This document shows, piece by piece, positions 3,574-34,324 of a stretch of DNA of 64,000 bases (its first letter is position 1; every line of letters starts with the position of its first letter). This DNA comes from Felis catus (taxonomy: Eukaryota), in NCBI RefSeq assembly GCF_018350175.1, contig NC_058376.1, positions 14,260,001-14,324,000 on the forward strand, written 5' to 3'. A program made the position numbers and the translations under genes. Under the pieces are notes generated by a model, which made no database searches, was not told where the DNA came from, and saw nothing but the letters and a program-made list of their open reading frames with translations.

Positions 3574-5142
3574 TTTGGATAGTCCCTGGAGTGGTGCGGA
3601 CCTGCAGGGCACTTCCCCTGTGCTGTGGTGTATAACTGGAGTTGGTGGGCAGGGCCGCAGTCAGACCTGATGTCTGCCCCCAGCCCACCGCTGGGGCCAT
3701 AGTCAGACTGGTGAGTGCCTTCTCTTCCCCTCTCCTAGGGGCAGGATTCACTGTGGGGTGGGGTGGTCCATCTGGACTACTTGCACACTGTCAGGCTTGT
3801 GGTGCTGGGGATCTGGCGTATTAGCTGGGGTGGGTAGGCAAGGTGCACGGGGGGCAGGAGGGGCAGGCTTAGCTCACTTCTCCCTAGGTGATCCACTTCA
3901 GGAGGGGCCCCTCTTCTGTGGGCCTCTCGTCTGCGCTTGGGTCCAGAGACTCCATTCTGCTAGTCTTCTGGTGGTTTTCTGGGTTATTTAGGCAGGTGTA
4001 GGTGGAATCTAAGTGATCAGCAGGATGCGCGGTGAGCCCAGCATCCTCCTATACCACCATCTTCTGCTGGTCCGAGAAATACTTTTGAATGTGTTTGAAA
4101 GGGAACCATCTGACACGCTGAATACATAGTAGAAAAATGGCAGATGAATTTCCTACTCTCAGAGTGTTTACATTTTGTTGGTGTTAATAAATATGTTACA
4201 AATTAATTATGACAAATTTAGACACATAATTTGCTTGGAGAGAATAAAACAGCTTCCTGGGGAAGAGAATGAAGGTTCATTAAATATTGGAGAGATAGTT
4301 CGGGGTGGTACTTTGATGTTTGGTGTCAAACGAACTGATCAAGTTGAAAGAATGGGCAGAAAGGGCAGTACCAAGCAGAAAGGGGAAGAGAAATTCATTA
4401 TGTGTTGGGTATGATCAGTGGTGCCACAGTTTTCAGTTGAAAAGAGGAAGGAGTAGGGCTTTAATGGTGTCCTTTAGTGTCTTCCCTGGTGCGTATACAA
4501 GAATGGGATGAGAAGCCCAGTCCTTTCTGAGTTTGAGAACCTTCCGTTTGTTGGGGTCTGACTTCAGTGTCCTTTCCTCAGGTGCCATTCCAGAGCTCTC
4601 ACCTTTAGATCCTACAATAGAAAATGTATTTCAGACTCAAATTCAACCAGCAGTGAATAACCAATCACTGATTCATATGCATGGCAAAGGTGAGTGCACA
4701 AAGTCTGAGTGTGAGGATCCTAGAGCCAGGAGACTCTAAACCATGTCAAATTCCAAGGAGGATGGCCTTGCCATCGAGGTCAGCCCTGGATGGAGGCTAT
4801 GCCCAGTATAGTAAGTGTCCTGCTGATGAAGAATTAAGCCTTCTCTCAAGGGATGGAATTATCACACATGGCATAGTCTAAATCTGATGTGATGACTGAG
4901 TGTGCTGTGAGTTAGTCTAGGATGGGTACATCCTACAACAGGGAAAAGAATTCTAATAATTACAGTTTGTTGAAAATCTATTCATTGTTTCATTATGTTC
5001 CTTGTCTTTGAAGGCTTCTGAAGGAGGGAAGAATATCATCAATTAGGCATGTATATCATAATTTACATATCTAGTAACGGTCTGGTTATTTATAAGGCAT
5101 AGAAGAACATAAGGAACAATGCGTTCACAAACAGACTACTAT

Positions 5143-5371
5143 ATTTATTTTTTTATTTATTTGAATTTTTTTCTTTTTTCTTTTTTTTTTTTTTTGAGAG
5201 ACAGAGTGTCAGGGTGGGAAGGGCAGAGTGAGAAAGAGACACAGAATCTGAATCAGGCTTCAGTCTCCAGGCTGTCAGCACAGAGCTCTACATGGGGCTC
5301 GAACTCACAAACCATTAGACATCACCTGAGCTGAGGTTGGACACTTAACCAATGAGCCACCCGGGAACCCC
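5143..5371 (-). mobile_element. CanSINE (SINEC_Fc-like), duplicated with the array (paralog 17295-17535)
   Basis: Poly(T) at left, GAGACACAGAATCTGAA body, TSD CAGACTACTAT/CAGACTACCAT. Confidence 0.9.
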
Positions 5372-7133
5372 CAGACTACCATCAAAGTGTGAAATTTGAG
5401 ACTCTTAGTCCAAGAATATTGGGGATTTTCAGGTTGAATGGAATGAGATTATTGCGATAATATATTGAATTATTTTATAACTTCTAAATGGCACACCAAC
5501 ATTTCAACACGGTTTTTTAAATGCATTTTTTAATTGGAGAAATATTGAAGGAATTCAAATTATGTGCCAGGCTGTACTTCATCGGGAAACAGGGTTGCAC
5601 AGAATAAAAGACTTTTTTTTCTGCCATTATGCATCTGTATTCAGAAACCTGAATGGAAAGGTACTGGAAATAATGTAATAGAGCTAGAAAACTTTTCCAA
5701 TAGTTCAGGAGAATTGTGACAAGAAAGGGGGTGTTAGAAAAGCAAAGTGTGTATTCAGGGATTTTGTGCACTAGAGATTATGGTTGTGAATTTCAAGAAT
5801 GGTAGAAAAGTAGGGAAAATTAAGGTAACGAACAATTGTAGTGGGCATATTTTCCTTAAACTTCTTGTAAGGGATGAATCACAGCAGAGGGACCACATAC
5901 CCCAGTGTAAAAGTCATAGGAAATACTGTCAACTGAAGGAAAAATGTCTACTAAGGAAAGATCACAGGAAACGAAAACAGCAGTTTTATGAAATTCCCAG
6001 GTGAAAGTATTCAGTAAAAGACTGGATGTCACTCATTCTTTGATGGGAAATTTTAGCATGGAGTAGAAGGAATGATCTTCCTGAGTTTGTACTCCCTTCC
6101 AGGTTGGATTTTAAAGTTCACAGTAAAAAGTAATACAAATTTTGGATTCTGCCAGATTCGTAAAATGGTGATTGATGTAAAGCATAGACAACGAAGACAA
6201 GCAGAAACATCCCAAGAAACAACCATACAAANNNNNNNNNNNNNNNNNNNNNNNNNNNNNNNNNNNNNNNNNNNNNNNNNNNNNNNNNNNNNNNNNNNNN
6301 NNNNNNNNNNNNNNNNNNNNNNNNNNNNNNNNNNNNNNNNNNNNNNNNNNNNNNNNNNNNNNNNNNNNNNNNNNNNNNNNNNNNNNNNNNNNNNNNNNNN
6401 NNNNNNNNNNNNNNNNNNNNNNNNNNNNNNNNNNNNNNNNNNNNNNNNNNNNNNNNNNNNNNNNNNNNNNNNNNNNNNNNNNNNNNNNNNNNNNNCAATA
6501 GAATGATTAGATAAAGGGTTTAGTTGAGAAAAAAAGGAAGTATTTGGAATTAGACACCAATAAAGTGAGAATATATAGATGTGAGGTTACAAACCAAGGT
6601 TTCTAGATCTCAACACTATTGGCATTGTACAGCAGAAGTTCCAGTGTTGTTGGGCTTTGTTCTGATGACTGGAATTAGCATCTTCCCTCATTTATCACAC
6701 ATGGAGCTACTAGGTATCTGCAGGAGGTATCTGGGTGTGAGAAGGCAGGTAAAAATTTGCAATGATTCCAGAAAGATGATGGGAGTTATTTCCTTCCCTA
6801 TGGGGACAGGTAGATAGCGTAGGAAAAAGGAGAGATCAAGAGGACAAGATTTTCCTAAATGTCCCTCAACAATGATACATAAGGTAAATTAAATGGCAAC
6901 AAGTTGTGAAGCTGGGTACCAGTTTTACGTATGGCCTATGATTCTAGTGAGAGAATTCTTTGGCAGAGCAATTAAAATGCTGTTCTTTAAATATAACTGG
7001 AGACCTCAACAGAATGAAGTCACATTTCCCAAGACATTTATTGATTGTTGACAGTGAGTGGCATACCAGAAGTGCTTACATATTTGTTGGGTATGTCAGG
7101 GGATGAATGGTATGTTCTGCCAATTACTGACAG

Positions 7134-7141
7134 TATATAAA
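7134..7141 (+). promoter_or_regulatory. TATA box, copy 1
   Basis: GTATATAAAGGT, 83 bp upstream of ATG; same motif before all ten copies. Confidence 0.85.
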
Positions 7142-7216
7142 GGTCCAAGGCTAGTAGAAGACACACAGTTCACCACATCCTCTCGCAACCCACGTGAAAT
7201 CTCTTCTCTTGACAAG

Positions 7217-7489
7217 ATGTGTTGCAACTACGGCAACTCCTGTGGCTATGGCTGTGGCTATGGCTATGGCTGTGGCTATGGCCCCTATTACAGCTGGAGT
7301 TATGGACCTGGCTATGGCTGTGGATATGGCTCCTGGTATGGCTGTGGCTCTGGCTGTGGATATGGCTCCTGCTGTGGCTATGGCCCCAGATATGGCTGTG
7401 GTTGTGGCTATGGTTCCGGCTGCTATGGTTCCGGCTGCTATGGTTACCGGCCATTTTGCTATAGAAGATGTTATTCTTCTTGCTGTTAG
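7217..7489 (+). CDS. KRTAP21: KRTAP21-like HGT-KAP, array copy 1 (90 aa, Trp-bearing type A)
   Basis: MCCNYGNSCGYGCG...[14 protein letters not shown] resembles human KRTAP21-1 termini; TATA 7134, AATAAA 7764; intronless. Start is the ATG downstream of the TATA, not ORF-track 7058. Confidence 0.9.
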   Translation: MCCNYGNSCGYGCGYGYGCGYGPYYSWSYGPGYGCGYGSWYGCGSGCGYGSCCGYGPRYGCGCGYGSGCYGSGCYGYRPFCYRRCYSSCC

Positions 7490-7763
7490 AACATCACCCC
7501 ATTGTCCTCTAAATAAGACACGTCTAATGAGAGGGCTGAATCAAGGATTCATACCTCACATTTTCTATATCCACGAAATTGCATGCTTCTCAGAGGTTCA
7601 CACCTTCAAGCAACATTTCTAGAATGGCATCCTGTGCTTCAAGGCAGTGTGGTATCATCTGACTCTTTTCCAAATGTTGATGTTTATTCCTTTACTCTGG
7701 ATTCTGTCATCTGACTGTGGAAACAAGCCTAACACCCCACTGTTGGGCAAATACCTTATTCTC

Positions 7764-7769
7764 AATAAA
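7764..7769 (+). terminator. Poly(A) signal, copy 1
   Basis: CCTTATTCTC-AATAAA conserved ~275-290 bp after the stop in all seven array copies. Confidence 0.8.
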
Positions 7770-10240
7770 AGTGATTCTTTACTTCTAGTATATCTCTATG
7801 TTCTTGCTTGTGAATTACTCCTTTTTTTGAGGTATTATGACTTCTCTTGAAAATCTAGGTGACAATATGTTTCATGAACATGAGGGCTCTTCCTTCATGT
7901 AATGGGAGCATTTCTTCTCTTATGTGCATCAGAGAAAATGCCTTTTCTACCTGTGCCTTGCACCCTCATGCCCAGGCCCTCACAACTCAACACAAATCAC
8001 AGAGTATTTCAGAACTTTCATCTGGAAATCACACTCTATGTAGAATGGAGGTGGAGGGGAAAGGCAAGGAGGGATGTTACCTCTTTTGGAGGTTGTGAGA
8101 CAAGCTCCAGGGAGAGGAGGTGTGGCCTGAGTACTTCAAGGATGAATGGAATGGAAGAGAGAGTTTCCAGATTAATGAGAAATTAGAAATGGAATCGGGT
8201 GTCTAATGAACTAAGGAAAGGAAAATTTAGAAGAAAGATGTGGTATTGTATCATCTGTAATTTAATGGAAGTCTGGATGTATTGTTGGCATATATTGTGA
8301 GTGAGGAAATTGATATGTGAGTCACTTAACTCACAAATAGTTTAGAATGTTTTTGAAAGGGAACTATCCTACACTCTGAAGATACAGGAGAAAAACTGTG
8401 GAGTACTTTCTTGCTCTCAGAGTGTTGACATTCTCATGGCGATATTTAAAAATAAGTAGGAATTAGTTGAAATTAATTTGGAGAGATCATACCTATGAAG
8501 GCAATAAAACATCTTACTGGGGAAGAGATTGTAGGCTGAAGGATTGCGGAGATAGTTCAAGGATGTATTTTGACATTTTGTGTCAAATGAACTGATGCCA
8601 TTTGAAAGAAATACTAGAAAGAACAGTTGTAAGTATAAAGGAGAAAGAGAAATTCATGAAGGTTGGGGTTTGATTGGTGGTGCCACAATTTGTAGTGGAA
8701 AAAAGCAAGGGATAGTTTGGGAGTTGCGAGCTTACTATTGTGTTGGGTTCTTACCAAAGTGTCTTTTCCTCATATGCCTTCCAGAACTCTAACAGTTAGA
8801 GTGTACATCAGAAAAAGTGTCTTCAGAGTCAATTTCTACCAGCAGAAAGAATGACTCACTGTCTCATCTCCATGACAAAAGTCACTGAAGAAATTCTGAG
8901 TCTGAGGACACTGGAGCTAAAAGACTCCATCCACAACATGGCCAATTCTAAGGAAAATAACCGTGCCATCAAGGTCAGCCCTGGCATGAGGCTATGCCCA
9001 GGATATTAAGTGTCCTGCTGTGGAAGGATCAAGGCTTCTGTCACGGGTTGGAAGTTTTCAATATGGAACACCCTAAGTCTGTTCTGAGGACTGCCTGTGC
9101 TCTGGGTTAGTCAAGGGGGGGTGGGGGGGGGGTAAATCCTACCGACAGGGGAAGAAATTCCATTAATTACAGTTTGTTAAAAATCTACTCATTGTTCTAT
9201 TATGTTCCTTGTCTTTGAAGGCTTCCTGAAAGAGGGAAGAACATCATCAGATAGGCATGTATATCACAATTTACATATCCATAAAGGGTCGAATATTTAT
9301 TAGGTATATAAGATAACTTGCACGTCTGTGACAAGGTGTTCATAAACTGACAAGTATCCTCAAAATGAGATATTTGAATCTCACTAGTTAAAAACTTTTG
9401 AGACTTTCAGGATGGAAAGAGTAGAATGGAATGAGAACATGGTGATAATATATTGAATTATCTTATAACTTGTACTGGCACACCAACATTTGAACACGAT
9501 TTTGTTTTAATGCATTTCTTTACTGGGGAAATATTGACGGAATTCAAATTATGTGCCAGGCTCTACTTCATCTGGAAAGAGGGGTGCACAGACGAGGAGA
9601 TTATGTTTCTGCCATTATGGATCTGTATTAAGAAACCTGAATGGAAAGTTACTAGAAATACTGCAAGAAAGCTGGAAAACTTTTCCCATAGTTCAGGAGT
9701 ATTGTGACAAGAAAGGGGTTGTTAGAAAAGCAAAGTGTGTATTCTAGGGATTTTGTGCATTAGAGTTTATAGCTGTGAATTTCAAGAATGGTAGAAAAGT
9801 AGAGAAAATTAAGCCAAAGAATAATTGTAGTGGGTATATTTTCCTTAAACTTCTGGTAAGGGATGAATTAGAGCAGAGTGATCAGATAGAGCAATCAAAA
9901 AGTCATAGGAAATACTGTCAACTGAAAGAAAAATGTCTACTAAGGAAAAATCACAGGAAAGAAAATCACCAGTTTTATGAAATTCCCAGGTGAAAGCATT
10001 GAGTGAAAGACTGGATGTCACTCATTTCTTTGATGGGAAATTTTAGCGTGGAGTAGAAGGAATGATCTTCCTGAGTTTGTTCTCCCTTCCAGCTTGGATT
10101 TTAGAGTTGTCACAGTAAAAAGTAATACAAATTTTGGATTCTGCCAGATTCATAAAATGGTGATTGATGTAAAGAGTAGACAACAAAGATGAGCAGAAAC
10201 ATCCCGGGAAACAACCATACAAACAAAAAAACAGAGACAC

Positions 10241-10266
10241 CTTCCTTCCTTCCTTTCTTTCTCTTT

Positions 10267-10308
<42 letters not shown>

Positions 10309-10395
10309 TTTCTTTCTTTCTTCTTTCTTTCTTTCTACTCTCTCTCTTTCTTTCTTTCATTATTTCTAAATTCTTCCTTCCTTCTTTCCTTCCTT
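10241..10395. repeat. (TTTC)n/(TTCC)n polypyrimidine microsatellite upstream of copy 2
   Basis: Direct reading. Confidence 0.95.
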
Positions 10396-11053
10396 GTTTT
10401 CTTATTGACTTTATGTCTGGCGATGGAATGATTGAATAATGGGTTTAGTTGAGAAAAAAAGGAAGAATTTGGAATTAGACACCAATAAAGAGAGAATATA
10501 TAGATGTGAGGTTACAAACCAAGGTTTCTAGATCTCAACACTATTGGCATTGTACAGCAGAAGTTTCAGTGTTGTTGGGCTTTGTTCTGTTGGCTGGAAT
10601 TAGCATCTTCCCTCCTTTATCACACATGGAGCTAGTAGGTATCTGCAGTAGGTATCTGGGTGTGAGAAGGCAGGTAAAAATTTGCAATGATTCCAGAAAG
10701 ATGATGGGAGTTATTTCCTTCCCTATGGGGTAGGTAGCTTAGGAAACAGAAGATATCAAGAGGATAAAATTTTCCTAAATGTCCCTCAACGATGATTCAT
10801 AAGGTAAATTAAATGACAGTAAGTTGTGAAGGTGGGTACCAGTTTTACGTATGGCACATGATTCTAGTGAGAGATTCTTTGGCAGAGCAAATTAAAATGC
10901 TGTTCTTTAAATATAACTGGAGACTCCAACAGAATGAAGTCACATTTCCCAAGACTTTTATTGATTGTTGACAGTGAGTGGCATACCAGAAGTGCTTACA
11001 TATTTGTTGGGTATGTCAGGGGATGAATGGTATGTTCTGCCAATTACTGACAG

Positions 11054-11061
11054 TATATAAA
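11054..11061 (+). promoter_or_regulatory. TATA box, copy 2
   Basis: TATATAAA at the conserved position. Confidence 0.85.
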
Positions 11062-11136
11062 GGTCCAAGGCTAGTAGAAGACACACAGTTCACCACATCC
11101 TCTCGCAACCCACGTGAAATCTCTTCTCTTGACAAG

Positions 11137-11370
11137 ATGTGTTGCAACTACGGCAACTCCTGTGGCTATGGCTGTGGCTATGGCTATGGCTGTGGCTATG
11201 GGCCCTATTATGGCTGTAGTTATGGACCTGGCTATGGCTGTGGATATGGCTGTGGATACGGCTCCTGCTGTGGCTATGGCACCAGATATGGCTGTGGCTG
11301 TGGCTATGGCTCTGGTTGCTGTGGCTACCGGCCATTTTGCTATAGAAGATGTTATTCTTCTTGCTGCTAG
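11137..11370 (+). CDS. KRTAP21: KRTAP21-like HGT-KAP, array copy 2 (77 aa)
   Basis: MCCNYGNSC...[14 protein letters not shown]; TATA 11054, AATAAA 11651. Confidence 0.9.
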   Translation: MCCNYGNSCGYGCGYGYGCGYGPYYGCSYGPGYGCGYGCGYGSCCGYGTRYGCGCGYGSGCCGYRPFCYRRCYSSCC

Positions 11371-11650
11371 AACATCACTGTCCAAGACACATTTGCTTCT
11401 GAAGTGGCATGGCTTAAGGGAGGGCTGATTCATTGATTTATACCCCAAGATTTCTATATCCAATGAATTGCATGCTTTCGGTAATTGTGACCTCTAGTTA
11501 GCATTTGTATGAAGGCTTCCTGTGGCTGAGGCTATGTGGTATCCTCTGACTATTTTCCAAATGTTAGTCTTCACTTCCCTAATCTGGGTTCTGTGTTGAG
11601 ACTGTGGCAACATATTTAAAATCCCACAGTGAGGTAAATCCCTTATTCTC

Positions 11651-11656
11651 AATAAA
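11651..11656 (+). terminator. Poly(A) signal, copy 2
   Basis: AATAAA in conserved context. Confidence 0.8.
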
Positions 11657-13507
11657 AATGTTTCATTTTTTTCCTAAGTAATCTCTGTGTTCTGGCTAAT
11701 GAATGACTCCTTTCTGAGGTGTATGGCATCTTTTGAAACTCGGGCGACAATATATTCCATGAACCTGGGTCTCTTCCTAGATATAATATAAACCTTTCTT
11801 CTCTTATGTGCATGGAGATAATGTCTTCTCCTATTTCTTGTATCCATAACACCTCAACATAAATCACACTGTGTAAGAACTTTGTCCTTGAGGTAACACC
11901 GTATCTAAATGGAGCTGAAGGCTGGAGGGGTAAGAGGAAGAGTTAGGACACCTCTTTGGGAAGTTGTGACACAAGCTCAAGGGGGGGGAAGTATGGCCTG
12001 AGTGCTTCGAGGATGAATGGGGTTGAAGAGAGAAATTTTGGGATTAATGAGAAATTGGGAGCCGCCTCTGTTGAGATGTAAGAAACTAAGAAAATGAGAA
12101 GCAAAAGAAAAACGTGATATTGTATTATCTGCATTTTGATGGAAGTGCAAATACATTTGTTGGCATATACTGCGTTTCAGTAAATTGATTTAAGTCCATT
12201 AATTGCCAAATAGTTTTGAATGTTTTTGAAAAGCAACTGTCACACACCCTGAAGGCTCAGTAGAAAAATTATAGGTGAATTTCTTGCTGTCAGAGTGGTT
12301 TCATTCTAGTAGGTTAATAAAACAAAGAGAAGAATTAATTCAGATAAATTTAGAGAGGTAATTCCTATGGTGTGAATAAAACAGCATCCTTGAGAAGACT
12401 GAAGTATTGAAGAGTTAGTTCAAGGATGTGTTTTGACATGTTCTGTCACATGAACTCATGTCAGTTTCCAGAAATACTAGAAAGGACAGTTGTAAATGTA
12501 AAGTAGAAACAGAAATACATAAGGTTTTGGTATGATCAGTGGTGCCACGAGTTTTCGTGCAAAAGAACAATGGCTAGTGTCTTAAATGGGCTCTCTAATG
12601 GAGCAGATATAAAATGTAATGAATAGTTCCAGTTGATTTTCTGAGTTTGAATGTGTACTACTTTGATGGATTCTGATTTCAGTGTGCTTCTCTCATGTGC
12701 CTTTCCAGACCTCTAACATTTAGATCCTACAACAAAAATTGTCTTTCAGACACAATTTCAACCAGCAGAATAAAAGACTCACTGTCTCGTCTCCATGACA
12801 AGGGTCACTGCACAAAATCTGGGTCTGAGTACCCTTGGTCCTGGAGACTCCACAACTTGGCCAGTTTCAAGGAAGATGGCTCTGCCATCAAGGTTGTCCT
12901 GGAGGGAAACTACGCCCAGGATATAATGTGTCTTACTGATGAGGAAAGAGATGTTCTTTCAAGAGCTGGGCAATTCTCACAGATGGAACATCTGTAAGTC
13001 ATTTCTGGGGACTGACTGTGTTCTGGATAAATCAGAGTTGACAAAATTGTATACACAGGGAGAGTCAATTCCAATCATTACAGTTTGTTGAACATAGAAC
13101 TTATGGTTTCATTAGGTTCCTTTTCATTGAACACTACTTGAAAGAGAGCAGAATAGTATTTATTAGACACATATCTCATACTTTCTATTTCTAGTAAAGA
13201 GTTTATCATTTATTAGGCATATGAGATAACGTATATCTGGAGAAATGACTTTGAAAACTAACAGATATCTTCAAAAGGTGAAATTTGTGACTGTTTTAGC
13301 CATGAGCATTTGGGACTTTCAGCTTGAATGAATTGAGAACATTATGACATATATTCACATTCTTATAGATTCTAAGTGATACCAACGTTTGAACATGGTT
13401 TTGTTTTAATGTGTCTGTTTTTTATTGGCAGAAATATTGAGTTGAGATTATGTGCCAGGCACTATGCTTAGAACTAACTGATGATTCAAGGACACACAGA
13501 AGAAAGA

Positions 13508-13752
13508 TTTTTTTTCTTTTTTTCTTTTTTTTTTTTTTAAATTTTTTTTCAACGTTTATTTATTTTTGGGACAGAGAGAGACAGAGCATGAACGGGGGAG
13601 GGGCAGAGAGAGAGGGAGACACAGAATCGGAAACAGGCTCCAGGCTCCGAGCCATCAGCCCAGAGCCTGACGCGGGGCTCGAACTCCCGGACCGCGAGAT
13701 CGTGACCTGGCTGAAGTCGGACGCTTAACCGACTGCGCCACCCAGGTGCTCC
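13508..13752 (-). mobile_element. Young CanSINE (SINEC_Fc-like)
   Basis: CpG-rich near-consensus body, long poly(T), TSD AGA(A/C)AGATTTTTT. Confidence 0.95.
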
Positions 13753-15059
13753 AGACAGATTTTTTTCTGCCAGTAAATATCAGTGTCCCGAGCTCTTAAT
13801 GGAAGTGTATAGAAATAAAGCAATAAAGATAGGAAGTGTTTTTCATTAGGTCGTGGGTATTGTGAGCAGAGAGTGGGTGTTTAAAAATTATCATGTCTAT
13901 TTCAGGGAACTTGTGCATTGGAATTTATGGTTTTGAATTTCAATAATGATGGAAAAGTAGGAAAATTAAAGGTAAAGAACATATGTAAGGGGATATATGT
14001 GTTGTATTTGTTGTTAGGGATGACACATAGTGGAGTGATCAGATAACCCATGAGCAATACTAGAAAATAAAAAAAACATTAGAAATATTCTCAACCAAAG
14101 GAAACATATCGAATAATGAAACTTCTCCGAAAAGGAAATCAGCAGTTTTATTAAAATGCCTGTGGAAGTCATTCAATAAAGGACTGGATGACTCTCATTT
14201 CTTGGTGTTAAAATTTGAGTGTGGAGTAGAAGAAATGATACCTGAATTTGTACTCGTTTCCAACTAGGATTTCATAGTTGTTACAGTGAAAAGTAATTTA
14301 AATTTTGGAATCTGCCTGGATATGAGCATAGTGACCTGGACAATGAAGATAAGGAAACACATCACAAACAAATAAACAACATTCTCCCCCACCCCCACTG
14401 TATGTCTGGTGATGAATGGGTTGGACTTTCAGTTTAGTTGAGAAGAAGGGGAATCTTTGGACATAGACACGAGTAAAGAGAATCTAATTTATAGATGTGA
14501 GGCTACAAAGGTAGGTTTCTCGATCTCAGCACTTTTGTCATTTGACATGAGGCATTTCAATGGCGTTGAGGACTTTTCTGTGTCGTGAAATGGGCATCAT
14601 CCCTAGCTTTTACCACCCAGAGCCAGTAGATATCTGTAGCAGGTATGTGGGTGCAAGAAGCCTGGTAAGATATTGCAATGATTCCAGAAAGGAGATGAAT
14701 TTTTCTTTCCTTTTGGACAGAGGTAGATGTTTCACGAGTGTGACGAAATCAAGAAGGAGAAATATTTCCTAAAAATCCCTCAGCCTTCTTGTTAAATGAT
14801 TGGAGATTGTGACCATGGATTTTGGTCACATGGATTTTGGACCATGGATTTTACTTAGAGTCCATGATTCTACTGAGAAAAGTTTTTTTGGCAGAATGAA
14901 ATAAAATGCTGTTTTTAATAAAACTGTTGTCTGCTTAATAATGAGCTCACGTTGCCCAACACATTGTTGATTGTTGACAGTGACTGGCACAGCACAGTTG
15001 CTTACATATTTGTTGGGTAAGTCAGGGGATGAGTGACATGCTCTGCTAATTACTGACAG

Positions 15060-15067
15060 TATATAAG
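15060..15067 (+). promoter_or_regulatory. TATA box (TATATAAG variant), copy 3
   Basis: Conserved position, one substitution. Confidence 0.8.
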
Positions 15068-15142
15068 GGTCCAAAGCAAGTGGAAGACACGCACTTCATC
15101 ACATCCTCTCACAACCCACGTGAATTCCCTTCTCTTGACAAG

Positions 15143-17294: not shown

Positions 17295-17535
17295 TTATTT
17301 ATTTATTTATTCGTATATTTCAATTTTTTTCATTTATTTATTTATTTATTTATTTTTTTGACAGACAGATGTCAGCGTGGGAGGGGCAGAGTGAGAAAGA
17401 GACACAGAATCTGAATCAGGCTTCAGTCTCCAGGCTGTCAGCACAGAGCACTACACGCAGATCAAACTCACAAACCGTAAGATCATCACCTGAGCTGAGG
17501 TTGGACACTTAACCAACTAGCCACCCAGTCACCCT
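17295..17535 (-). mobile_element. CanSINE, paralog of 5143-5371
   Basis: Same insertion site and shared diagnostic changes (GAATCAGGCTTCAGTCTCCAGGC). Confidence 0.9.
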
Positions 17536-19206: not shown

Positions 19207-19476
19207 ATGTGTTGCAACTACGGCAACTCTTGTGGCTATGGCTGTGGCTATGGCTGTGGCTATGGCTACGGCTGTGGCTATGGTCCCTATTACAGCTGGA
19301 GTTATGGACCTGGCTATGGCTGTGGATATGGCTCCTGGTATGGCTGTGGCTCTGGCTGTGGCTCTGGCTCCTGCTGTGGCTACGGCCCCAGATATGGCTG
19401 TGGTTGTGGCTATGGCTCCAGCTGCTATGGTTACCGGCCATTTTGCTATAGAAGATGTTATTCTTCTTGCTGCTAG
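19207..19476 (+). CDS. KRTAP21: KRTAP21-like HGT-KAP, array copy 4 (89 aa, type A)
   Basis: MCCNYGNSC...PYYSWSYGPG...[14 protein letters not shown]; TATA 19124, AATAAA 19751. Confidence 0.9.
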   Translation: MCCNYGNSCGYGCGYGCGYGYGCGYGPYYSWSYGPGYGCGYGSWYGCGSGCGSGSCCGYGPRYGCGCGYGSSCYGYRPFCYRRCYSSCC

Positions 19477-20369: not shown

Positions 20370-20527
20370 AGGGGGAAAATTGTGGAGTAGTTTCTTGCTC
20401 TCAGAATGTTGACATTCTAATGGCTATATTTAAAGCAAGTAAGAATTAGGGGGAAAATTGTGGAGTAGTTTCTTGCTCTCAGAATGTTGACATTCTAATG
20501 GCTATATTTAAAGCAAGTAAGAATTAG
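20370..20527. repeat. Perfect 78-bp tandem duplication
   Basis: GGGGGAAAATTGTGG...AAGAATTA begins at 20371 and again at 20449. Confidence 0.95.
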
Positions 20528-23218: not shown

Positions 23219-23488
23219 ATGTGTTGCAACTACGGCAACTCTTGTGGCTATGGCTGTGGCTATGGCTGTGGCTATGGCTACGGCTGTGGCTATGGTCCCT
23301 ATTACAGCTGGAGTTATGGACCTGGCTATGGCTGTGGATATGGCTCCTGGTATGGCTGTGGCTCTGGCTGTGGATATGGCTCCTGCTGTGGCTACGGCCC
23401 CAGATATGGCTGTGGTTGTGGCTATGGCTCCAGCTGCTATGGTTACCGGCCATTTTGCTATAGAAGATGTTATTCTTCCTGCTGCTAG
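23219..23488 (+). CDS. KRTAP21: KRTAP21-like HGT-KAP, array copy 5 (89 aa, type A)
   Basis: Differs from copy 4 by one residue (GCGYGSCC vs GCGSGSCC); TATA 23136, AATAAA 23762. Confidence 0.9.
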   Translation: MCCNYGNSCGYGCGYGCGYGYGCGYGPYYSWSYGPGYGCGYGSWYGCGSGCGYGSCCGYGPRYGCGCGYGSSCYGYRPFCYRRCYSSCC

Positions 23489-26700: not shown

Positions 26701-27073
26701 AATGATTCCAGAAAGAAGATGGGAGTTATTTCCTTCCCTATGGGGACATGTAGATAGTTTAGGTAAGAGGAGAGATCAAGAGGACCAAATTTTCCTAAAT
26801 GTCCCTCAACGATGATATATAAGGTAAATTAAATGACAACAAGTTGTGAAGGTGGGTACCAGTTTTACATATGGCCTATGATTGTAGTGAGAGATTCTTT
26901 GGCAGAACAAATTAAAATGCTGTTCTTTAAATATAACTGGAGACTCCAACAGAATGAAGTCACATTTCCCAAGACATTTATTGATTGTTGACAGTGAGTG
27001 GCATACCAGAAGTGCTTACATATTTGTTGGGTATGTCAGGGGATGAATGGTATGTTCTGCCAATTACTGACAG

Positions 27074-27081
27074 TATATAAA
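27074..27081 (+). promoter_or_regulatory. TATA box, copy 6
   Basis: TATATAAA at the conserved position. Confidence 0.85.
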
Positions 27082-27154
27082 GGTCCAAGGCTAGTAGAAG
27101 ACACACAGTTCACCACACCTCTCACACCCACGTGAATTCTCTTCTCTTAACAAG

Positions 27155-27382
27155 ATGTGTTGCAACTACGGCAACTCCTGTGGTTATGGCTGCGGATATG
27201 GCTATGGCTGTGGATGTGGTCCCTATTATGGCTGTGGTTATGGCCTCCGTTATGGCTGTGGTTATGGCTCAGGCTATGGCTGTGGCTATGGCACCAGATA
27301 TGGCTGTGGCTATGGCTATGGCTCCAGCTGCTGTTGCTACCAGCCATCTTGCTATAGAAGATGGTATTCCTCTTGCTGGTAG
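27155..27382 (+). CDS. KRTAP21: KRTAP21-like HGT-KAP, array copy 6 (75 aa, type C CDS, altered C-terminus)
   Basis: MCCNYGNSC...GLRYG...YQPSCYRRWYSSCW; TATA 27074, AATAAA 27671. Confidence 0.88.
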   Translation: MCCNYGNSCGYGCGYGYGCGCGPYYGCGYGLRYGCGYGSGYGCGYGTRYGCGYGYGSSCCCYQPSCYRRWYSSCW

Positions 27383-27670
27383 AACATCACTGTCCAAGCC
27401 CCACTTGCTTCTGAAATGACATGCCTTAAGAGAAGGCTCATTCAAGGATCTATATTTATATATCGAGATTTATATATTGAGAGCATTGCATGTGTCATTG
27501 AAGATTTGACCTCCAGTAACATTTGTAGCATGGCATCTTGTGGCTTGAGGCTATCGAGTATCATCTAACAGTTTTCCAAAAAGTGTTGTTCTTACTCCCT
27601 TAGTATGCATTCTGTGTTGTGACTGTGGCGTGGATCCGTACATTCCACATTTCGCAATCCCCTTATTCTC

Positions 27671-27676
27671 AATAAA
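27671..27676 (+). terminator. Poly(A) signal, copy 6
   Basis: AATAAA in conserved context. Confidence 0.8.
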
Positions 27677-30187
27677 AATGTTTCATTCCTTCTATCAAAT
27701 GTCTCTAGTCTCTTTTAAGAAAGCCTCATATCTTGAGGTGTTATGGCCTCTCTTGAAAATTGGGCTGACAATATATTTCACGTACCCGGGTCTCTTTCTG
27801 GATATCATACAAGCATTTCTTCTCTTACATGCATAGATATAATGTCTTCTCCACCTAAGTCTCATATCTCTAGCACAGTACTGCAGAACTGTGCCCTGGA
27901 AATCACACTGTAGATAGAATGGATGTGGAGGGAAAAGAGGAGGACGAGGAGGGATGGCACCTCTTGGGAGGTTGTGACAGAAGCCCAAGGGAAAGGAGGT
28001 GTGGCCTGATCACTTAAAGGGTGAATGTGATGGAAGAGAGAGTTTCTGGTATTTCTGTGAAATTGGAAGCTGCCTCAGCTGAAGTGTAAAGAACCAAGGA
28101 AAGGGTAAGTTAGAATAAAAGCATGGTATCATATCATCTGAATTGGATGGATTTGCTAATATATTTGTTGGCATAAATTGAGTTTGAGGAAATGGATTTA
28201 AGTTACTTAATTGACAAATACTTTTGAATGTGTTTGAAAGAGAACCATCCGACACACTGAATACACAGTAGAAAAAATGTAGATGAATTTCCTACCCTCA
28301 GAGTGTATACATTTTGTTGGTGTTAATAAATATGTTACAAATTAATTATGATAAATTTAGACACATAATTTGCTTGGAGGGAATAAAACAGCTTCTTGGG
28401 GAAGACAATGAAGGTTGAAATATTGGAGAGATCAGGGAGGTATTTTGATGTTTTTGTGTCAAATGAACTGATCCAAGTTGACAGAATGACTAGAAAGGAC
28501 AGCACTAAATAAAAAGGGCGGAAAAGAAATTCATTAAGTTTTGAGTATGATCAGTGCTGCCACAATTTTCAGTTGAAAAAAGCAAGGACCTGTGCTTTAA
28601 TGGTAGCATTTATGGCATTACTTGGTTCAGATATAAAGCCCAGTTCTTTCTGAGTTTGAGAACCTACTAGTTTGTTGGGGTCTGTTTTCAATGTCCTTTC
28701 CTCATGTGCCATTCCAGAACTCTAGCCTTTAGATCCTACAGTAGAAAATATTTTTCAGGGTCAAATTCAGCCAGCAGTGAAAAGCGACTCACTAACTCAT
28801 CTCCATGACAAGGGTCATTATAAAGTCTGAATCTGAGGTACCTGGAGCTTGGAGACTCCACAACATGGCCAGTTCCAAGGAAGATAGTGCTGCCATCAAG
28901 GTCAGCCCTGGAGTGAGGCTATGCCCAGGATATAACATGTTCTGCTGATGAAGAGACATGGTTTCTTTCAAGAGTTGGGCATTTTTCACAGATGGAACAT
29001 CTTTAAGTCAGATATGGGGACTGACTGTCCTTTGGGTCAATATGAGTGGGGAAACCCTACAAAGATGGGTAGGGAATTCTAATAATGAAGTTCACTGAAC
29101 ATCTAACTTATGCTTTCATTTATGTCCTTGTCATTGAATACTTTCTGGAGGAGGGCAGAATATCATTAATTAGGCACGTATATCAAAATTTACATGTGTA
29201 GTGAAGTGCTGATCATTTATGAAACATTTAAGATAACTAATACCTCTGGAAATATGTCTTTGTAAACTAACACATATCTTCAAAATGTGAAATTTGTGAG
29301 TCTCTTAGTCACAGAACATTTGAAAGTTTCAGCTTGAGTAAAATGGGAACACTCCAATGTTAGAACATATTTTGTTTTAATGCATCTGTTTTTATCGGTG
29401 GAAATATTGATTGATTTCAAATTACATGCCAGGCACTCTACGTAGAACTTGTGACTCAGAGATGTACAAAATATAGATTTTTTTCTGCTGTTATGGGTCA
29501 GAATCTAGAGCTCTGAATGGAAAAGTACTAGAAATAATGCAATAAATATAGGAATGATTTTCAATAGATCAGGCATATTGTGACCAGAAAGTGGGTTTTT
29601 GAAAATTGACATGTCTATTCTAGATAACCTTTGCATTAGAATTTGTCATGTTGAATTTCAAGACTGACAGAAAAGGAGAGAAAATAAAAGGTAAAGAACA
29701 ATTGCATGGGATATGTTTTCTTTAAGCTTCTTGTTAGTGATGACGCATAGCAATCAAACAGACCAGTGACCAGTATAAGAAAAGTCAGTTGGATTCCTTC
29801 TTAACTGAAGGGAAAATGTCTAATAATTAAAGTTCTCAGAAAAGAAAATCAGCAGCTTTATGAAAAAATCTCTGTTGAAAGCACTTGATAAAGGACTTGT
29901 TGGCCCTCCTTACTTTGTTGTTGAAATTTGAAAGTGAAGTAGAAGGAATAATCTTCCTGAGTTTGTACTTCCAACACGGATTTCATAGCTGTTATAGTAA
30001 AAAGTTAAATTTTGGATTGTGCCTGAATCTGAAAATAGTGACTTAGACAACAAAAATAACCAAAAACATCACAAACAAAAAGTAAACAACTTTTTTTTTA
30101 ACTACACATCTGCTGATGGAAAGGTCATATGCTTGGTTTAGTTGAGAAGAAAGGGATATTTGGACTTAGCAATAAAGAAAGAACCTA

Positions 30188-30421
30188 GGGCACCTGGGTG
30201 GCTCAGTCCATTGGGCGTCCGACTTTAGCTCAGGTCATGATCTTGCGGTTTGTGAGTTTGAACCCTGCGTCAGGGTTCACAGAACCCTGCTCTGTGATGA
30301 CAGCTCGCAGCCTGCAGCCTGCTTCAGATTTTGTGTCTCCTTCTCTCTCTGCTCCTCCCCTGCTCGTGCTCTGTCTCTTTCTCAAAAATAAATAAACATT
30401 AAAAAAATGAAAAAAAAAAAT
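30188..30421 (+). mobile_element. CanSINE
   Basis: GGGCACCTGGGTGGCTCAGT head, (CT)n, poly(A), TSD AAAGAAC(C/G)T. Confidence 0.92.
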
Positions 30422-30855
30422 AAAGAACGTAATTTATAGATGCGATGTTATAAACCAAGGTTTCTGAATCTCGGCACTATTGACATCTGACATTAGATCT
30501 TTCAATGTTGTTGGGGGTTGTTCTGTGCCCTGATATTATCATCATCCCTGGTTTCTCCCACAAGGAGACAGTAGGCATATATAGTAGGTATCTGGGTGCA
30601 AGAAGCCTGCCAAGAAGTTGTGATGATTCCAGAAAGGAGTTGGGAGTTATTTCCTTCCCCAAGGGCAGAGGTAGATGTTTTGAGAAGGAGGAGAGATCAA
30701 GAGGGACAAAATTTTCCTCAATTCATCATAAACTTGTTATATGAAATATATTAAAAGATAGGAGGTTGTGAAGTTTGGTATCTGTTCTATGTAGAGCACA
30801 TGACGTTACTGAGATAATTCTTTGTCAGAGTAAATTAAAATGCTGCCTCTAAATA

Positions 30856-31043
30856 GGGTCACCTGGGTGGCTCAGTCTGGTAAGCATCTGACTCTTGATT
30901 TCAGCTCAAGTCATGATCTCATGGTTCTTGAGTTGATGAGATTGGACTCTGCACTGACAGAGCGGAGCCTGCTTGGGATTCTCCCTCTGTCTCTCTGCCT
31001 TTCTTTTGCTCATGCTCTATTTCTCAAAATAAATAAAGTTAAA
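30856..31043 (+). mobile_element. CanSINE in the proximal promoter of copy 7
   Basis: tRNA-derived head, A-rich tail, degenerate TSD AAAATGCTGCCTCTAAATA / AAAATTGTTGCTCTTTAAATA. Confidence 0.9.
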
Positions 31044-31205
31044 AAAATTGTTGCTCTTTAAATAAAATGAGAGTCACCCCCAAATAAACAGTTTATTTTA
31101 CCCAAGACATTACTGATTGTTGACAGTTACTGGCACAGCATAGTTGCTTACATATTTGTTGGGTAAGTCAGGGGATGAATGGCATGCTTTGTCAATTACT
31201 GGCGG

Positions 31206-31213
31206 TATATAAA
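31206..31213 (+). promoter_or_regulatory. TATA box, copy 7
   Basis: TATATAAA at the conserved position. Confidence 0.85.
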
Positions 31214-31288
31214 GGTCCAAGGCTAGTAGAAGACATGCACTTCACCACATCCTCTCGCAACCAACGTGAATTCTCTTCCCTTGACAAG

Positions 31289-31570
31289 ATGTGTTGCAAC
31301 TACGGCAACTCCTGTGGCTATGGCTGCGGATATGGCTATGGCTGTGGATGTGGCCCCTATTATGGCTGTGGTTATGGAACAGGCTATGGCTGTGGCTATG
31401 GTACTGGGTATGGCTGTGGATATGGCTCACGGTATGGCTGTGACTCTGGCTGTGGATATGGCTCCTGCTGTGGCTATGGCACTGGATATGGCTGTGGCTA
31501 TGGCTATGGCTCCAGCTGCTGTGCCTACCGGCCATTTTTCTATAGAAGATGTTATTCTTCTTGCTGCTAG
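31289..31570 (+). CDS. KRTAP21: KRTAP21-like HGT-KAP, array copy 7 (93 aa, GTGYG repeats)
   Basis: MCCNYGNSC...GTGYGCGYGTGYG...[14 protein letters not shown]; TATA 31206, AATAAA 31845. Confidence 0.9.
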   Translation: MCCNYGNSCGYGCGYGYGCGCGPYYGCGYGTGYGCGYGTGYGCGYGSRYGCDSGCGYGSCCGYGTGYGCGYGYGSSCCAYRPFFYRRCYSSCC

Positions 31571-31844
31571 AACATCACTGTTCAAACCCCACTTGCTTCT
31601 GAAATGACATGCCTTAAGAGAAGGCTGATTCAAGAATCCATACTCCAAGACTTCTATATCTAAGAAATTGCATGCTTTGTAGAAGATTTGACCACCATTA
31701 ACATTTGTAGGATGGCATCTTGTGGCTGTGTAGTATCATCTTACTGTTTTCCATATGTTGGGCTTTACTACCTTAATCTGGATTCTGTTTTGTGACTGTG
31801 GCAATGATCCTAACATTCCACAGCTAGGCAAATCCCTTATTCTC

Positions 31845-31850
31845 AATAAA
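31845..31850 (+). terminator. Poly(A) signal, copy 7
   Basis: AATAAA in conserved context. Confidence 0.8.
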
Positions 31851-32543
31851 AATGGTTCTTTGCTTCTAACACATCTCTGTGTTCTTGTCTGTGAATTACT
31901 CCTTTTTTTTGAGGTGTTATGGTGTCTCTTGAAATCCAGCTGACAATATATTTCATGAACCCTCGACTTTTCTCCTTGATACAATACAAGCATTTCTTCT
32001 CTTACGTACATCAGAGATAATGTCTTCTCCACCTATTTCTTGCATCCTTCATACTCAGCCCTCACACAATATTTCAGAACTGAGTCCTGAAAATCACCCT
32101 GTATCTAGAATGGAGGTGAAGGAGAAAGATGAGGTGGGATGTCAACTCTTCAGGAGGCTGTGACAGAAGCCCAAAGGAGCGGAGGTGTGGCTTGAGCACT
32201 TAAAGGATAAATGGAATGGAAGAGAGTTCCCAGGATTAATGAGAAATTGGAAGCAGACTCAGGTGATGGATGAATAACTAAGGAAAGGATAAGTAGAATA
32301 AAAATGTGGTATCATGTCATCTGCATTTTGATGCAAGTGCAAACACATTTGTCTGCATATATTGAATTTGTGAAATTGATATTAGTCACTTAACTGGCAA
32401 ATAGTTTTGAATATTTTTGAAAGGGAACTGTCTTACACACTGAAGATACAGGTCCAACATTGTAGACGGGTTTCCTGCTGTCAGAGTGTTTACATTCTAG
32501 TAGGTGATAATAAAAAGAAAAGTAAGAATTAAAATAAATTTAA

Positions 32544-32756
32544 TGTTTTTTTAAAATTTGTTTTTGAAGGAGAGAGAGAGAGAGACAGAGCCTGAGCGGG
32601 GGAGGAGCAGAGAGAGAGGGAGACACAGAATTTGAAGCAGGCTCCAGGCTCTGAGCTGTCAGCACACAGCCCGACACGGGGCTTGAACTCACGAACCGTG
32701 AGATCATGACCTGAGCTGAAGTCAGATGCTCAACTGACTGAGCCACCCAGGTGCCC
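32544..32756 (-). mobile_element. CanSINE
   Basis: (GA)n and consensus body; TSD AATTAAAATAAATTTAA. Confidence 0.92.
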
Positions 32757-33701
32757 ATAATTAAAATAAATTTAAATGGGTGATTGTTATGGTGGAAATA
32801 AAACAGCCTCCTGGGGAAGAGAGTGCAGTTTGAATTATTGGATACAGTTCTGGGCAGTATTTTGAAGTTTTGTGTCATCTGAAATTTTGGCAGTTGTAAG
32901 AAAGTCTAGAAAGGACAGTAGGAAGTGTAAAAGGAAAGAGAAATTCATTAAGTTTTGGGTATGATCAGTGGTGCCATAACTACCAGTTTGAAAGTACAAG
33001 GACTAGTGCTTTATAGGTGTCTTTGACTGCCCTACTCGGTGCAGATAAGAATGGGATGAAAAGCCCAGTCCTTTCTGAGTTTGAGAGTCTACGAGTTTGT
33101 TGGGGTCTGACTTCAGGGTTTTTCCTCATATGCCTTTCCAGAAGTCTAACATGTAGATCTTACAATAAAAAATGTCTTTTCAGACTCAATTTCAACCAGC
33201 AGTGAAAAATGACTCACTGACTCATCCCCATGACAAAGGTCACTTCACAAAGTGTGAATCTGAGGTTCCTGGAGTTTGGAGACTCCACAATATGGCCAAT
33301 TCCAAGGAAGATGGTTCTGCCATCAAGGTCAGCCCCAGAGTGAGGCTATACCCAGCATATAATGTGTCTTACTGATGAGGAAACCGGGGTGCTTTCAAGA
33401 GTTGGACAGTTTTCAGTGATGGAACATTTGTTAGTCGGAGCTGAGGACTGACTGCTTTGCATAATACACATTTAGTCTTACAAAGAAGAGAAGCTACTTC
33501 TAATGATTGCTTGTGGTTGAAAATCTACTCATTGTTTCATATGGCCTTTGTCATCACAGACATTTTTAAAAATGTGGGGATACGATTTTTTTAAGTATTA
33601 TAAGGTCATTTACATATCCAAACAACAGTCTTCAGGAAGTAACATTAAATATATGTTCAAATCACAAATATTGTGACTCTCTTAGTCAACAAACAATCAT
33701 G

Positions 33702-34240
33702 TAGAATGTCACAGTTGGTGAGAGAGGGAGGGAACCACAAGTTCTTTGCTAGGTGGGAAGACCAAAGACTAAATCGTAGGAAAAGTGGGTGGGTGGGTCA
33801 GGACCCCATCATGAGACAGGTGGAAGGGAAAAACCTGGTCACAATATTTTCTCTAGCGATGAATGAGATGTGGTGGTCAGGGGAGACTGGAATATACCAA
33901 ATGGGTGATGTCAGTCAAAAGACAACATGGTGCAGAATACCAGTATTCCAACCAGGCCTCAGAGATATGGTATACCAGTATGTGAAAAAAGGGTCCAGAA
34001 TTTACATGTAAGGGACAGTAGATTATGGCGAATACACGGATAAAATTAATGTGAGGTGACAAGCAACAGCAATCATAGCTGATAACGTATTTCTGAGTGA
34101 CCAGACCAAAGAAAAGGCATAGAGTGGATGATTTTTCTTTGGCCATTGTTTGGTACAGTCTCATTTCCAAATCATGTATATTCTTTATAGTTCCTAAGGA
34201 TAATAATTAAAATACTCTTTTATATAAAATAAAAAAAAAA
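33702..34240 (+). pseudogene. SSBP1: Processed pseudogene of mitochondrial single-stranded DNA-binding protein
   Basis: From 33787: [29 protein letters not shown]...[68 protein letters not shown] (stop 34120-34122). Intronless; premature stops at 34009 and 34057; ATTAAA 34206; poly(A) ~34226-34240; degenerate TSD AACAAACAATCATG / AACAAAATAATTATG. Confidence 0.92.
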
Positions 34241-34324
34241 CAAAATAATTATGACTCTCATCTTGAGTAAATGAGGAAATTAAAATTGTAAAAGAGAGAT
34301 AGGGTTGATAAAATCAGAGATAGT

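What the first reader, a model, noticed from the sequence alone, without database searches (positions are those of the whole stretch)
4077..34280. Recent tandem amplification of one KRTAP21 gene into at least seven intact copies
Seen: seven open ORFs at ~4 kb spacing, each with TATA and AATAAA, in homologous flanks. All seven share MC(C/Y)NYGNSC with a single Tyr, whereas the non-array copies have NYY, so they descend from one founder. Known: HGT-KAPs are hair-shaft matrix proteins, and humans have only a few KRTAP21 members. Inference: a lineage-specific dosage expansion. No stop or frameshift in any of the seven suggests selection, possibly linked to coat fibre properties.
Basis: partly seen in the sequence, partly recalled or inferred. 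Interest (0 to 1): 0.72.

Follow-up and report, generated by a model that had tools for sequence, protein, structure and literature searches.

The report
Old, promoter-shuffled cat hair-gene array
This is a real tandem run of 15 intact hair-protein (KRTAP21-type) genes, seven of them in the window, but most copies differ by 15-30% and dogs carry a similar run at the same place, so it is likely an old array that later roughly doubled in the cat lineage by swapping DNA through a shared promoter, an ordinary kind of gene-family turnover rather than a recent burst.

Summary
Observation confirmed and extended; interpretation mostly not. The seven ORFs are intact with TATA and AATAAA, and eight more lie upstream: 15 units, none elsewhere in the genome. 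It is not a recent one-founder burst. The seven differ by 6-28% over whole units and fall into six deep lineages (K 0.19-0.35). Fox shares the single-Tyr start, and dog has eight co-oriented KRTAP21 genes about 4 kb apart at the syntenic site. Three lineages (A, B, C) later grew to 12 copies (K 0.06-0.08). This followed a cat-lineage-type SINE insertion and probably preceded most of the Felidae radiation, since cheetah and snow leopard carry A-type and chimeric copies. Units are mosaics: eight share a promoter about 2% apart although their distal spacers differ 23.5%, and one gene switches lineage across its ATG. The proteins are under purifying selection (omega about 0.23-0.36). Best reading: birth-and-death by unequal crossover and conversion centred on the promoter. 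Expression, copy-number variation and coat effects are untested. Known kind; modest interest.

The parts
7217..7489 (+). u09: intact KRTAP21-type ORF, 90 aa, gene-body type A, promoter P1, upstream spacer Y
11137..11370 (+). u10: intact ORF, 77 aa, body type B, promoter P1, upstream spacer Z
   Evidence: Pfam KRTAP 23.3 bits
15143..15388 (+). u11: intact ORF, 81 aa, body type C, promoter P2, upstream spacer X
19207..19476 (+). u12: intact ORF, 89 aa, body type A, promoter P1, upstream spacer Y
23219..23488 (+). u13: intact ORF, 89 aa, body type A behind a Z spacer (irregular A-A junction; mosaic switch about -1850 to -1150 from the ATG)
27155..27382 (+). u14: intact ORF, 75 aa, chimera of promoter P1 and body type C; switch between -49 and +59; closest array copy to the snow leopard protein P0003
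31289..31570 (+). u15: intact ORF, 93 aa, terminal unit with its own ancient lineage; old CanSINE about 235 bp upstream of the ATG
10837..11136 (+). Example of the homogenised P1 promoter (-300..-1), shared at 0-4% difference by 8 of 15 units (u04, 05, 07, 09, 10, 12, 13, 14); TATA at -83
14843..15142 (+). Example of the P2 promoter (u03, 06, 08, 11; proximal part also u02), about 19% from P1
5150..5372 (-). CanSINE shared at one orthologous site by all four Y spacers (also 17300-17533 and two upstream copies); absent from Z spacers and the spacer before u15; brackets the amplification
17300..17533 (-). Y-spacer CanSINE copy upstream of u12
13510..13757 (-). Young CanSINE private to the u11 spacer; empty site in the three other X spacers
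1..4074 (-). In-window part of a roughly 5.5-kb LINE-1 (starts about 1418 bp before the window) inserted in the u08-u09 spacer, replacing about 400 bp of it; interrupts the array, which continues upstream with eight more intact genes (u01-u08, G000:C18:14230193-14258144)
39098..39319 (+). Non-array KRTAP21-like gene, NYY type, ATT in place of the start ATG (probable pseudogene)
43748..44293 (+). Non-array KRTAP21-like ORF, 181 aa, NYY type
50578..50925 (+). Non-array KRTAP21-like ORF, 115 aa, NYY type, stop before the usual C-terminal tail

Best explanation
This is a 15-gene head-to-tail array of intact KRTAP21-type genes built from six deeply diverged lineages, likely inherited from an array already present in the cat-dog ancestor, in which three lineages (A, B, C) were later likely amplified to 12 copies in the cat lineage by unequal crossing-over and gene conversion centred on a shared promoter. 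SHOWN: 15 intact units; six lineages; gene body and the spacer downstream of it travel together; promoter P1 sits in front of A, B and one C body; stepwise loss of divergence toward the start site; chimeric genes; purifying selection on the proteins. INFERRED: an ancestral C-A-B trimer of about 12 kb as the amplified unit; repeated conversions made the Y and Z spacers alike over their last 1.7 kb and nearly identical over the last 300 bp, giving a misalignment substrate through which crossovers dropped, doubled or swapped gene bodies (C-B, A-A and A-C junctions); timing after a cat-lineage SINE (at most about 35-50 Myr) and mostly before the Felidae radiation (about 11 Myr). FROM ESTABLISHED KNOWLEDGE, untested here: the products are glycine/tyrosine-rich hair-shaft matrix proteins, and extra copies raise their dose.
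For: Divergence: 3' segments K 0.06-0.08 within A, B and C, and 0.33-0.35 between them; distal spacers 0.28-0.39 between types. A, B and C are each clades at 100/100 in the 3' tree but break up in the upstream trees (u01 left out of two trees). Spacer type follows the upstream body in 11 of 12 junctions from u03 on. Y versus Z difference falls 23.5, 11.8, 6.9, 2.3% from distal spacer to promoter, while P1 versus P2 or u15 stays 18-19% in the same 300 bp, so constraint alone does not explain it. u14 switches from P1 to C between -49 and +59; u07 between -571 and +74; u02 carries a C-type patch over promoter and ORF. Sawyer-type test: 23 of 78 pairs significant (13 units, u01 and u08 and ORF columns left out). 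718-bp mismatch-free tract between u03 and u08. Synonymous difference between bodies 0.23-0.28, non-synonymous 0.035-0.078; 56 synonymous against 47 non-synonymous changes on a minimum spanning tree, 7-16 stops expected if neutral, 0 seen. Dog: KRTAP21-3 to -10 co-oriented, 3.9-4.6 kb apart, 66 kb from KRTAP8-1 (PMC2528016 supplement 1); cat 64 kb from the matching gene, with KRTAP7 18 kb beyond it against 20 kb in dog. Fox NYG start. Cheetah P0002 is A-type with P1 (1 mismatch to u04); snow leopard P0003 is closest to chimeric u14; lynx P0008 has the u01 promoter translation. Shared Y SINE and private young SINEs with empty sites.
Against: No DNA from another carnivore could be aligned, so 1:1 orthology with dog and the copy number in other felids are not shown; only one annotated protein each was found for cheetah, snow leopard, lynx, fox and seal. 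Conversion distorts divergence clocks, and the clock used (cat-tiger 95.6% similarity at 10.8 Myr) is crude. The three irregular junctions all fall in P1 spacers, but 8 of 11 junctions are P1, so that alone is expected by chance about one time in three (56/165), and the homogenised zone is partly the product of the same events. No GC-bias signature of a hot spot on the P1 stem (13 weak-to-strong against 12 strong-to-weak). The Y SINE matches neither published diagnostic motif; its subtype is my reading of one indel. The Sawyer null assumes even rates, and promoter constraint inflates it. Within C bodies the last 20 codons show pN above pS (0.069 against 0.044, few sites). Pfam KRTAP passes its cut-off in only 3 of 7 window copies.
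Confidence: 0.75

Rival explanations
1. Recent single-founder burst in the cat lineage: one KRTAP21 gene was copied 7-15 times lately for dosage.
For: Regular 4-kb period, same orientation, shared single-Tyr start, similar proteins; 15 units against 8 in dog.
Against: 64 of 91 unit pairs differ by 15% or more, 1 of 91 by under 5%; synonymous sites differ 23-28% between types; fox has the same start; dog has a syntenic 4-kb run; A-type and chimeric copies occur in cheetah and snow leopard.
Confidence: 0.04
2. Old array plus cat-lineage amplification, but the shared P1 promoter comes from one or two chimeric duplication events plus strong purifying selection, with no continuing promoter-centred exchange.
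For: The proximal 100 bp is constrained in all lineages (about 10% against 25-30%); no GC bias; few irregular junctions.
Against: Four distinct divergence steps between Y and Z (23.5, 11.8, 6.9, 2.3%) need several events of different age; P1 copies are closer (2.3-2.7%) than their own same-type spacers (5.7-9.3%), whereas P2 copies are not (6.0% against 5.3-7.3%); a 718-bp identical tract lies in spacer DNA.
Confidence: 0.15
3. Positive selection spread the P1 promoter onto A, B and one C gene body because it gives stronger or different hair-follicle expression, as with HBB-promoter capture in the beta-globin cluster.
For: P1 drives 8 of 15 genes and is more homogeneous than P2; a fixed P1-C chimera appears to be shared with snow leopard.
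Against: No expression data; neutral recombination gives the same picture; P2 genes remain intact and constrained.
Confidence: 0.2
4. Assembly artefact: haplotypes or reads stacked into extra units.
For: Tandem arrays are prone to it (general knowledge); read depth could not be checked.
Against: 0 of 91 whole-unit pairs under 1%, closest 4.0%; private SINE and L1 insertions mark single units; all on one 158-Mb contig.
Confidence: 0.02

Closest known systems
Mammalian KRTAP21 tandem clusters (Wu et al. 2008, PMC2528016; Khan et al. 2014, PMC4180150)
   Same: Same subfamily by best named homologues and synteny; multi-copy runs at about 4-kb spacing are tabulated for dog (8 of its 10), panda, bat and horse; counts 0-13 across the 30 species tabulated.
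   Different: Cat is in neither table; 15 array genes plus 2 further open frames exceeds the highest count listed (13). Khan et al. report low conversion in high-Gly/Tyr KRTAPs from coding alignments, whereas exchange here is plain in promoters and spacers. I saw passages, one section each and supplement rows, not whole texts; the .doc and .fas supplements of Wu et al. could not be read and may list dog conversion pairs and sequences.
KRTAP1 coding-only concerted evolution (Zhou et al., bioRxiv 10.1101/282418)
   Same: Short-tract exchange among tandem KRTAP paralogues whose flanks keep old lineage identity (abstract and section 13 read).
   Different: There the coding region is homogenised and the pattern switches at start and stop codons; here synonymous sites of A, B and C bodies stay 23-28% apart and the homogenised block is the promoter and proximal spacer. 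Only u02 shows a promoter-plus-ORF patch.
Anti-Lepore HBB/HBD chimeric fusion genes and promoter capture (Gaudry et al. 2014, PMC4041002)
   Same: Unequal crossover or conversion joins one paralogue's promoter to another's coding sequence, fixed in carnivores among others (abstract only); u14 and u07 have that structure.
   Different: There the parental genes are typically lost and the expression effect is known; here parents persist in many copies and no expression effect is shown.

Membership tests
KRTAP21 / high-Gly-Tyr KAP | Short intronless ORF rich in Gly and Tyr | tested here: met
   75-93 aa, Gly 29-32%, Tyr 21-24%, Cys 20-23% in 7 of 7
KRTAP21 / high-Gly-Tyr KAP | Pfam KRTAP (PF11759) above its cut-off | tested here: inconclusive
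   3 of 7 above 21.1 bits, 3 below, 1 no hit; low-complexity sequence
KRTAP21 / high-Gly-Tyr KAP | Nearest named homologues are KRTAP21 | tested here: met
   Top named hits 'keratin-associated protein 21-1-like' in cheetah, snow leopard, lynx, fox, zebra; cat record P0017 equals u01
KRTAP21 / high-Gly-Tyr KAP | Position next to KRTAP8 and KRTAP7 in the cluster | tested here: met
   KRTAP7 (PF15034, E 3.5e-49) 82 kb and a KRTAP8-like gene 64 kb upstream of u01 (the KRTAP8 label rests on position and recall); dog spacing 66 and 20 kb
KRTAP21 / high-Gly-Tyr KAP | Expression in hair-follicle cortex and incorporation into the shaft | not testable with these tools
   No run was listed, so no reads could be laid
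Recent single-founder tandem amplification | Near-identical whole units | tested here: not met
   1 of 91 pairs under 5%, median 22.6%
Recent single-founder tandem amplification | Array and signature absent from outgroups | tested here: not met
   Dog syntenic 8-gene run; fox NYG start
KRTAP1-type coding-only concerted evolution | Synonymous sites homogenised among paralogues | tested here: not met
   pS 0.23-0.28 between body types; exception u02
KRTAP1-type coding-only concerted evolution | Paralogues cluster by species in coding trees and by position in flank trees | not testable with these tools
   No orthologous DNA from other mammals available
Anti-Lepore-type chimeric fusion genes | Promoter of one paralogue joined to the body of another at a mappable switch | tested here: met
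   u14 switch -49 to +59; u07 -571 to +74
Anti-Lepore-type chimeric fusion genes | Captured promoter changes expression | not testable with these tools
   No expression data

The most novel reading that the evidence does not exclude
A promoter-centred mirror image of KRTAP1 concerted evolution: in cats one promoter allele (P1) was spread by selection onto three ancient, still distinct hair-protein gene bodies and serves as the exchange hub that doubles and reshuffles them, so that felids make several different matrix proteins under one regulatory programme, with copy-number variation that shapes coat fibre.
Probability: 0.15. Interest if true: 0.55.

Novelty: new member of a known kind. Interest (0 to 1): 0.3.

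Why it matters
It corrects a tempting story (a recent cat-specific coat adaptation) and gives a well-resolved example of how a hair-gene array turns over: proteins held by purifying selection, promoters merged by recombination, units swapped through that shared block. The array looks under-annotated (0 of 7 window ORFs, with or without the upstream extension tried for 5 of them, are in the protein collection) and is a plausible copy-number-variable locus for felid coat studies. It also suggests that conversion in high-Gly/Tyr KRTAPs is missed when only coding regions are tested.

Tried and rejected
Sequencing-run search (library word PACBIO, 9.9-kb query): none was listed, no RNA holder listed; this is no evidence either way, and it left read depth, other-felid DNA and expression untested. 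Exact look-ups of the nine window ORFs and five extended forms: not in the collection. GC-biased conversion at P1: no signal. Coding-region homogenisation as the cause of protein similarity: rejected by pS; a first estimate from protein-guided alignments was redone with amino-acid-blind codon alignments and with transition weighting, with the same conclusion. A missing or dead unit in the 9.3-kb gap between u08 and u09: rejected, it is an L1. The 38-39-aa N-terminal extension from an ATG upstream of the TATA box: rejected as real coding sequence, since it is broken in 6 of 15 units and reads through the TATA box. Literature: searches for a cat or felid KRTAP21 array gave 0 papers, 9 unrelated or review listings and 39 papers, 20 listed, none about this array by title; the library lacks most subscription journals. 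Earlier scan findings: none. Structure prediction was not run (low-complexity proteins, no bearing on the question).
Full report
OBSERVATION. The three relatives downstream have NYY. The array runs beyond the window: a search of the own genome and 200 kb of neighbouring DNA gave eight more intact genes upstream, 15 in all, named u01-u15, with u09-u15 in the window. A 3' flank finds exactly 15 places, all here. The 9.3-kb gap between u08 and u09 is a minus-strand LINE-1 of about 5.5 kb whose best genomic relatives are 98% identical. The organism is a cat: a Felis catus protein record equals u01.

NOT AN ARTEFACT, NOT RECENT. Over -2450 to +600 from the ATG, the closest of 91 pairs (14 units; u01 left out for lack of upstream homology) differs by 4.0%, none by under 1%, 12 by under 10% and 64 by 15% or more; the seven window copies differ by 6.0-27.8%. 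The 3' segments form three starred clades, A (u04, 09, 12, 13), B (u05, 07, 10) and C (u03, 06, 08, 11, 14), plus three singletons (u01, u02, u15) (u08's branch is inflated by the L1). K is 0.06-0.08 within A, B and C and 0.33-0.35 between them, and 0.19-0.30 for pairs involving the singletons. On the crude clock of cat-tiger similarity (95.6% at 10.8 Myr; PMC3778509, passages), even the closest pair is about as old as that split, within-type copies about 15-20 Myr and the types several tens of Myr (inference).

OUTGROUPS. KRTAP21 counts are 4 in human but 10 in dog (PMC2528016 Table 1), 11 in cow, 9 in pig, 8 in panda, 13 in armadillo and 12 in sloth (PMC4180150 Table 1). Dog KRTAP21-3 to -10 are eight co-oriented genes 3.9-4.6 kb apart, 66 kb from KRTAP8-1, which lies 20 kb from KRTAP7-1. 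In cat u01 is 64 kb from a KRTAP8-like gene (label from position and recall), which lies 18 kb from KRTAP7. Panda, bat and horse also show 3.7-5 kb spacings. The fox protein begins MCCNYGNSC; zebra and muntjac have NYY. The single-Tyr founder is therefore at least as old as the cat-dog ancestor. A cheetah protein is A-type with one mismatch to u04 and a P1 promoter translation; a snow leopard protein is closest to the chimeric u14; a lynx protein carries the u01 promoter translation. Only one protein per wild species turned up, so their copy numbers are unknown.

BRACKETING THE AMPLIFICATION. All four Y spacers share one CanSINE at the same site, absent from Z spacers and from the spacer before u15; the copies are 88-95% alike and 79-82% like their best unlinked relatives. 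It lacks the longer motif seen in the oldest SINE here and keeps the T that separates subtype IIA from IIB in PMC4084570 (passages), but it matches neither published diagnostic motif, so the subtype is my reading; both subfamilies are described there as feliform. Two young SINEs, 96-97% like unlinked copies and IIB-like (under about 5 Myr in that paper), are private to u03 and u11, with empty sites in the other three X spacers. The A-B-C amplification thus falls after a cat-lineage insertion and before the young insertions.

ANATOMY OF EXCHANGE. Upstream spacers fall into X (before u03, 06, 08, 11), Y (u04, 07, 09, 12) and Z (u05, 10, 13, 14). The spacer follows the gene body before it (A-Z, B-X, C-Y) in 11 of 12 junctions from u03 on, the last being the terminal spacer, so the unit that moves is body plus downstream spacer, and a C-A-B trimer of about 12 kb is the simplest ancestor (inference). 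Y and Z differ by 23.5% at -2450 to -1750, 11.8% at -1700 to -950, 6.9% at -700 to -300 and 2.3% at -300 to -1; in that last block P1 differs from P2 and from u15 by 18-19%, which measures what constraint alone achieves. P1 copies are closer than their own same-type spacers; P2 copies are not. Diagnostic-site painting puts the u14 switch from P1 to body C between -49 and +59, the u07 switch between -571 and +74 (one site suggests before -383), a mosaic switch at -1850 to -1150 in u13, and a C-type patch over the promoter and ORF of u02. A Sawyer-type permutation test found 23 of 78 pairs with significant tracts (13 units, ORF columns excluded), and u03 and u08 share 718 bp without a mismatch. 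Against a strong hub claim: the three irregular junctions falling in P1 spacers is weak evidence (8 of 11 junctions are P1), there is no GC bias (13:12), and promoter constraint inflates the permutation test.

SELECTION. With codon alignments blind to amino acids, pS and pN are 0.06-0.10 and 0.005-0.034 within types, and 0.23-0.28 and 0.035-0.078 between them. On a minimum spanning tree of the 15 ORFs there are 56 synonymous and 47 non-synonymous changes; omega is 0.23 unweighted and 0.29-0.36 with transition weighting, and 7-16 nonsense changes would be expected under neutrality against none seen. Repeat alignments minimise differences and a spanning tree is not a phylogeny, so these are approximate. 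The protein likeness that suggested recency is thus purifying selection, not youth or coding conversion. This supports function of the set but says nothing on positive selection for dose or coat type.

COMPARISON. It is a KRTAP21 cluster by composition, named homologues and synteny; Pfam passes only 3 of 7 copies. It works like ordinary birth-and-death evolution with unequal crossover. It differs from KRTAP1, where coding regions are homogenised and flanks are not (10.1101/282418, abstract and section 13), and it resembles promoter-capture chimeras of the beta-globin cluster (PMC4041002, abstract). Khan et al. describe low conversion in high-Gly/Tyr KRTAPs from coding alignments; flanks here show otherwise for one cluster. 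My searches found no paper on this cat array, within a library lacking most subscription journals.

VERDICT. Real, larger than reported, older than claimed. A new member of a known kind with one attractive detail, promoter-centred homogenisation with chimeric genes. Expression, copy-number variation and any coat effect remain untested (no run listed). Interest 0.3.

Noticed in passing
window 39098-39319: KRTAP21-like gene with TATA box, open frame and AATAAA but ATT where the start ATG should be; probable pseudogene, 7.8 kb after u15 (dog has a short KRTAP21-2 about 7 kb beyond its 4-kb run).
   Followed up: partly
window 50578-50925: KRTAP21-like ORF stops just before the usual C-terminal tail; a remnant reading PFCL follows the stop.
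   Followed up: partly
window 43748-44293: Unusually long (181 aa) KRTAP21-like ORF from about 19 copies of a 24-bp unit; panda has a 633-bp KRTAP21 in its run.
   Followed up: no
window 1-4074 and L016 end: Roughly 5.5-kb minus-strand LINE-1 with ORF1 and ORF2 fragments replaces about 400 bp of the u08-u09 spacer with no evident target-site duplication.
   Followed up: partly
window 7103-7216 and equivalents: Database proteins from cat, cheetah, snow leopard, lynx, zebra and muntjac carry a 38-39-aa N-terminal extension that is a translation through the TATA box; probably an annotation artefact.
   Followed up: yes
window 30850-31060: Old CanSINE inserted only about 235 bp upstream of the u15 ATG, plus a second at 30190-30419; may alter u15 regulation.
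   Followed up: partly
L013-L016 (u02, u03, u08): u03 and u08 spacers share 718 identical bases ending near a SINE private to u03, a recent conversion tract; u02 has a C-type promoter and ORF inside its own ancient flanks.
   Followed up: yes
L010-L012 (about 50 kb and 61 kb upstream of the window) and L009:2912: Two decayed Gly/Tyr-rich frames without ATG and a 57-aa ORF with a TATA box and no Pfam match, between the KRTAP8-like gene and the array; likely KRTAP relics.
   Followed up: no
window 20370-20527: Perfect 78-bp tandem duplication in the u12-u13 spacer.
   Followed up: no
C-type ORFs, last 20 codons: pN exceeds pS (0.069 against 0.044) among C copies, on few sites; possible relaxed or diversifying tail (u14 has several changes there).
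   Followed up: no
window 52043-52390 and 53135-53482: Inverted repeat pair, 353 bp at 86% identity, with TTTCC and GGAAA satellites.
   Followed up: no
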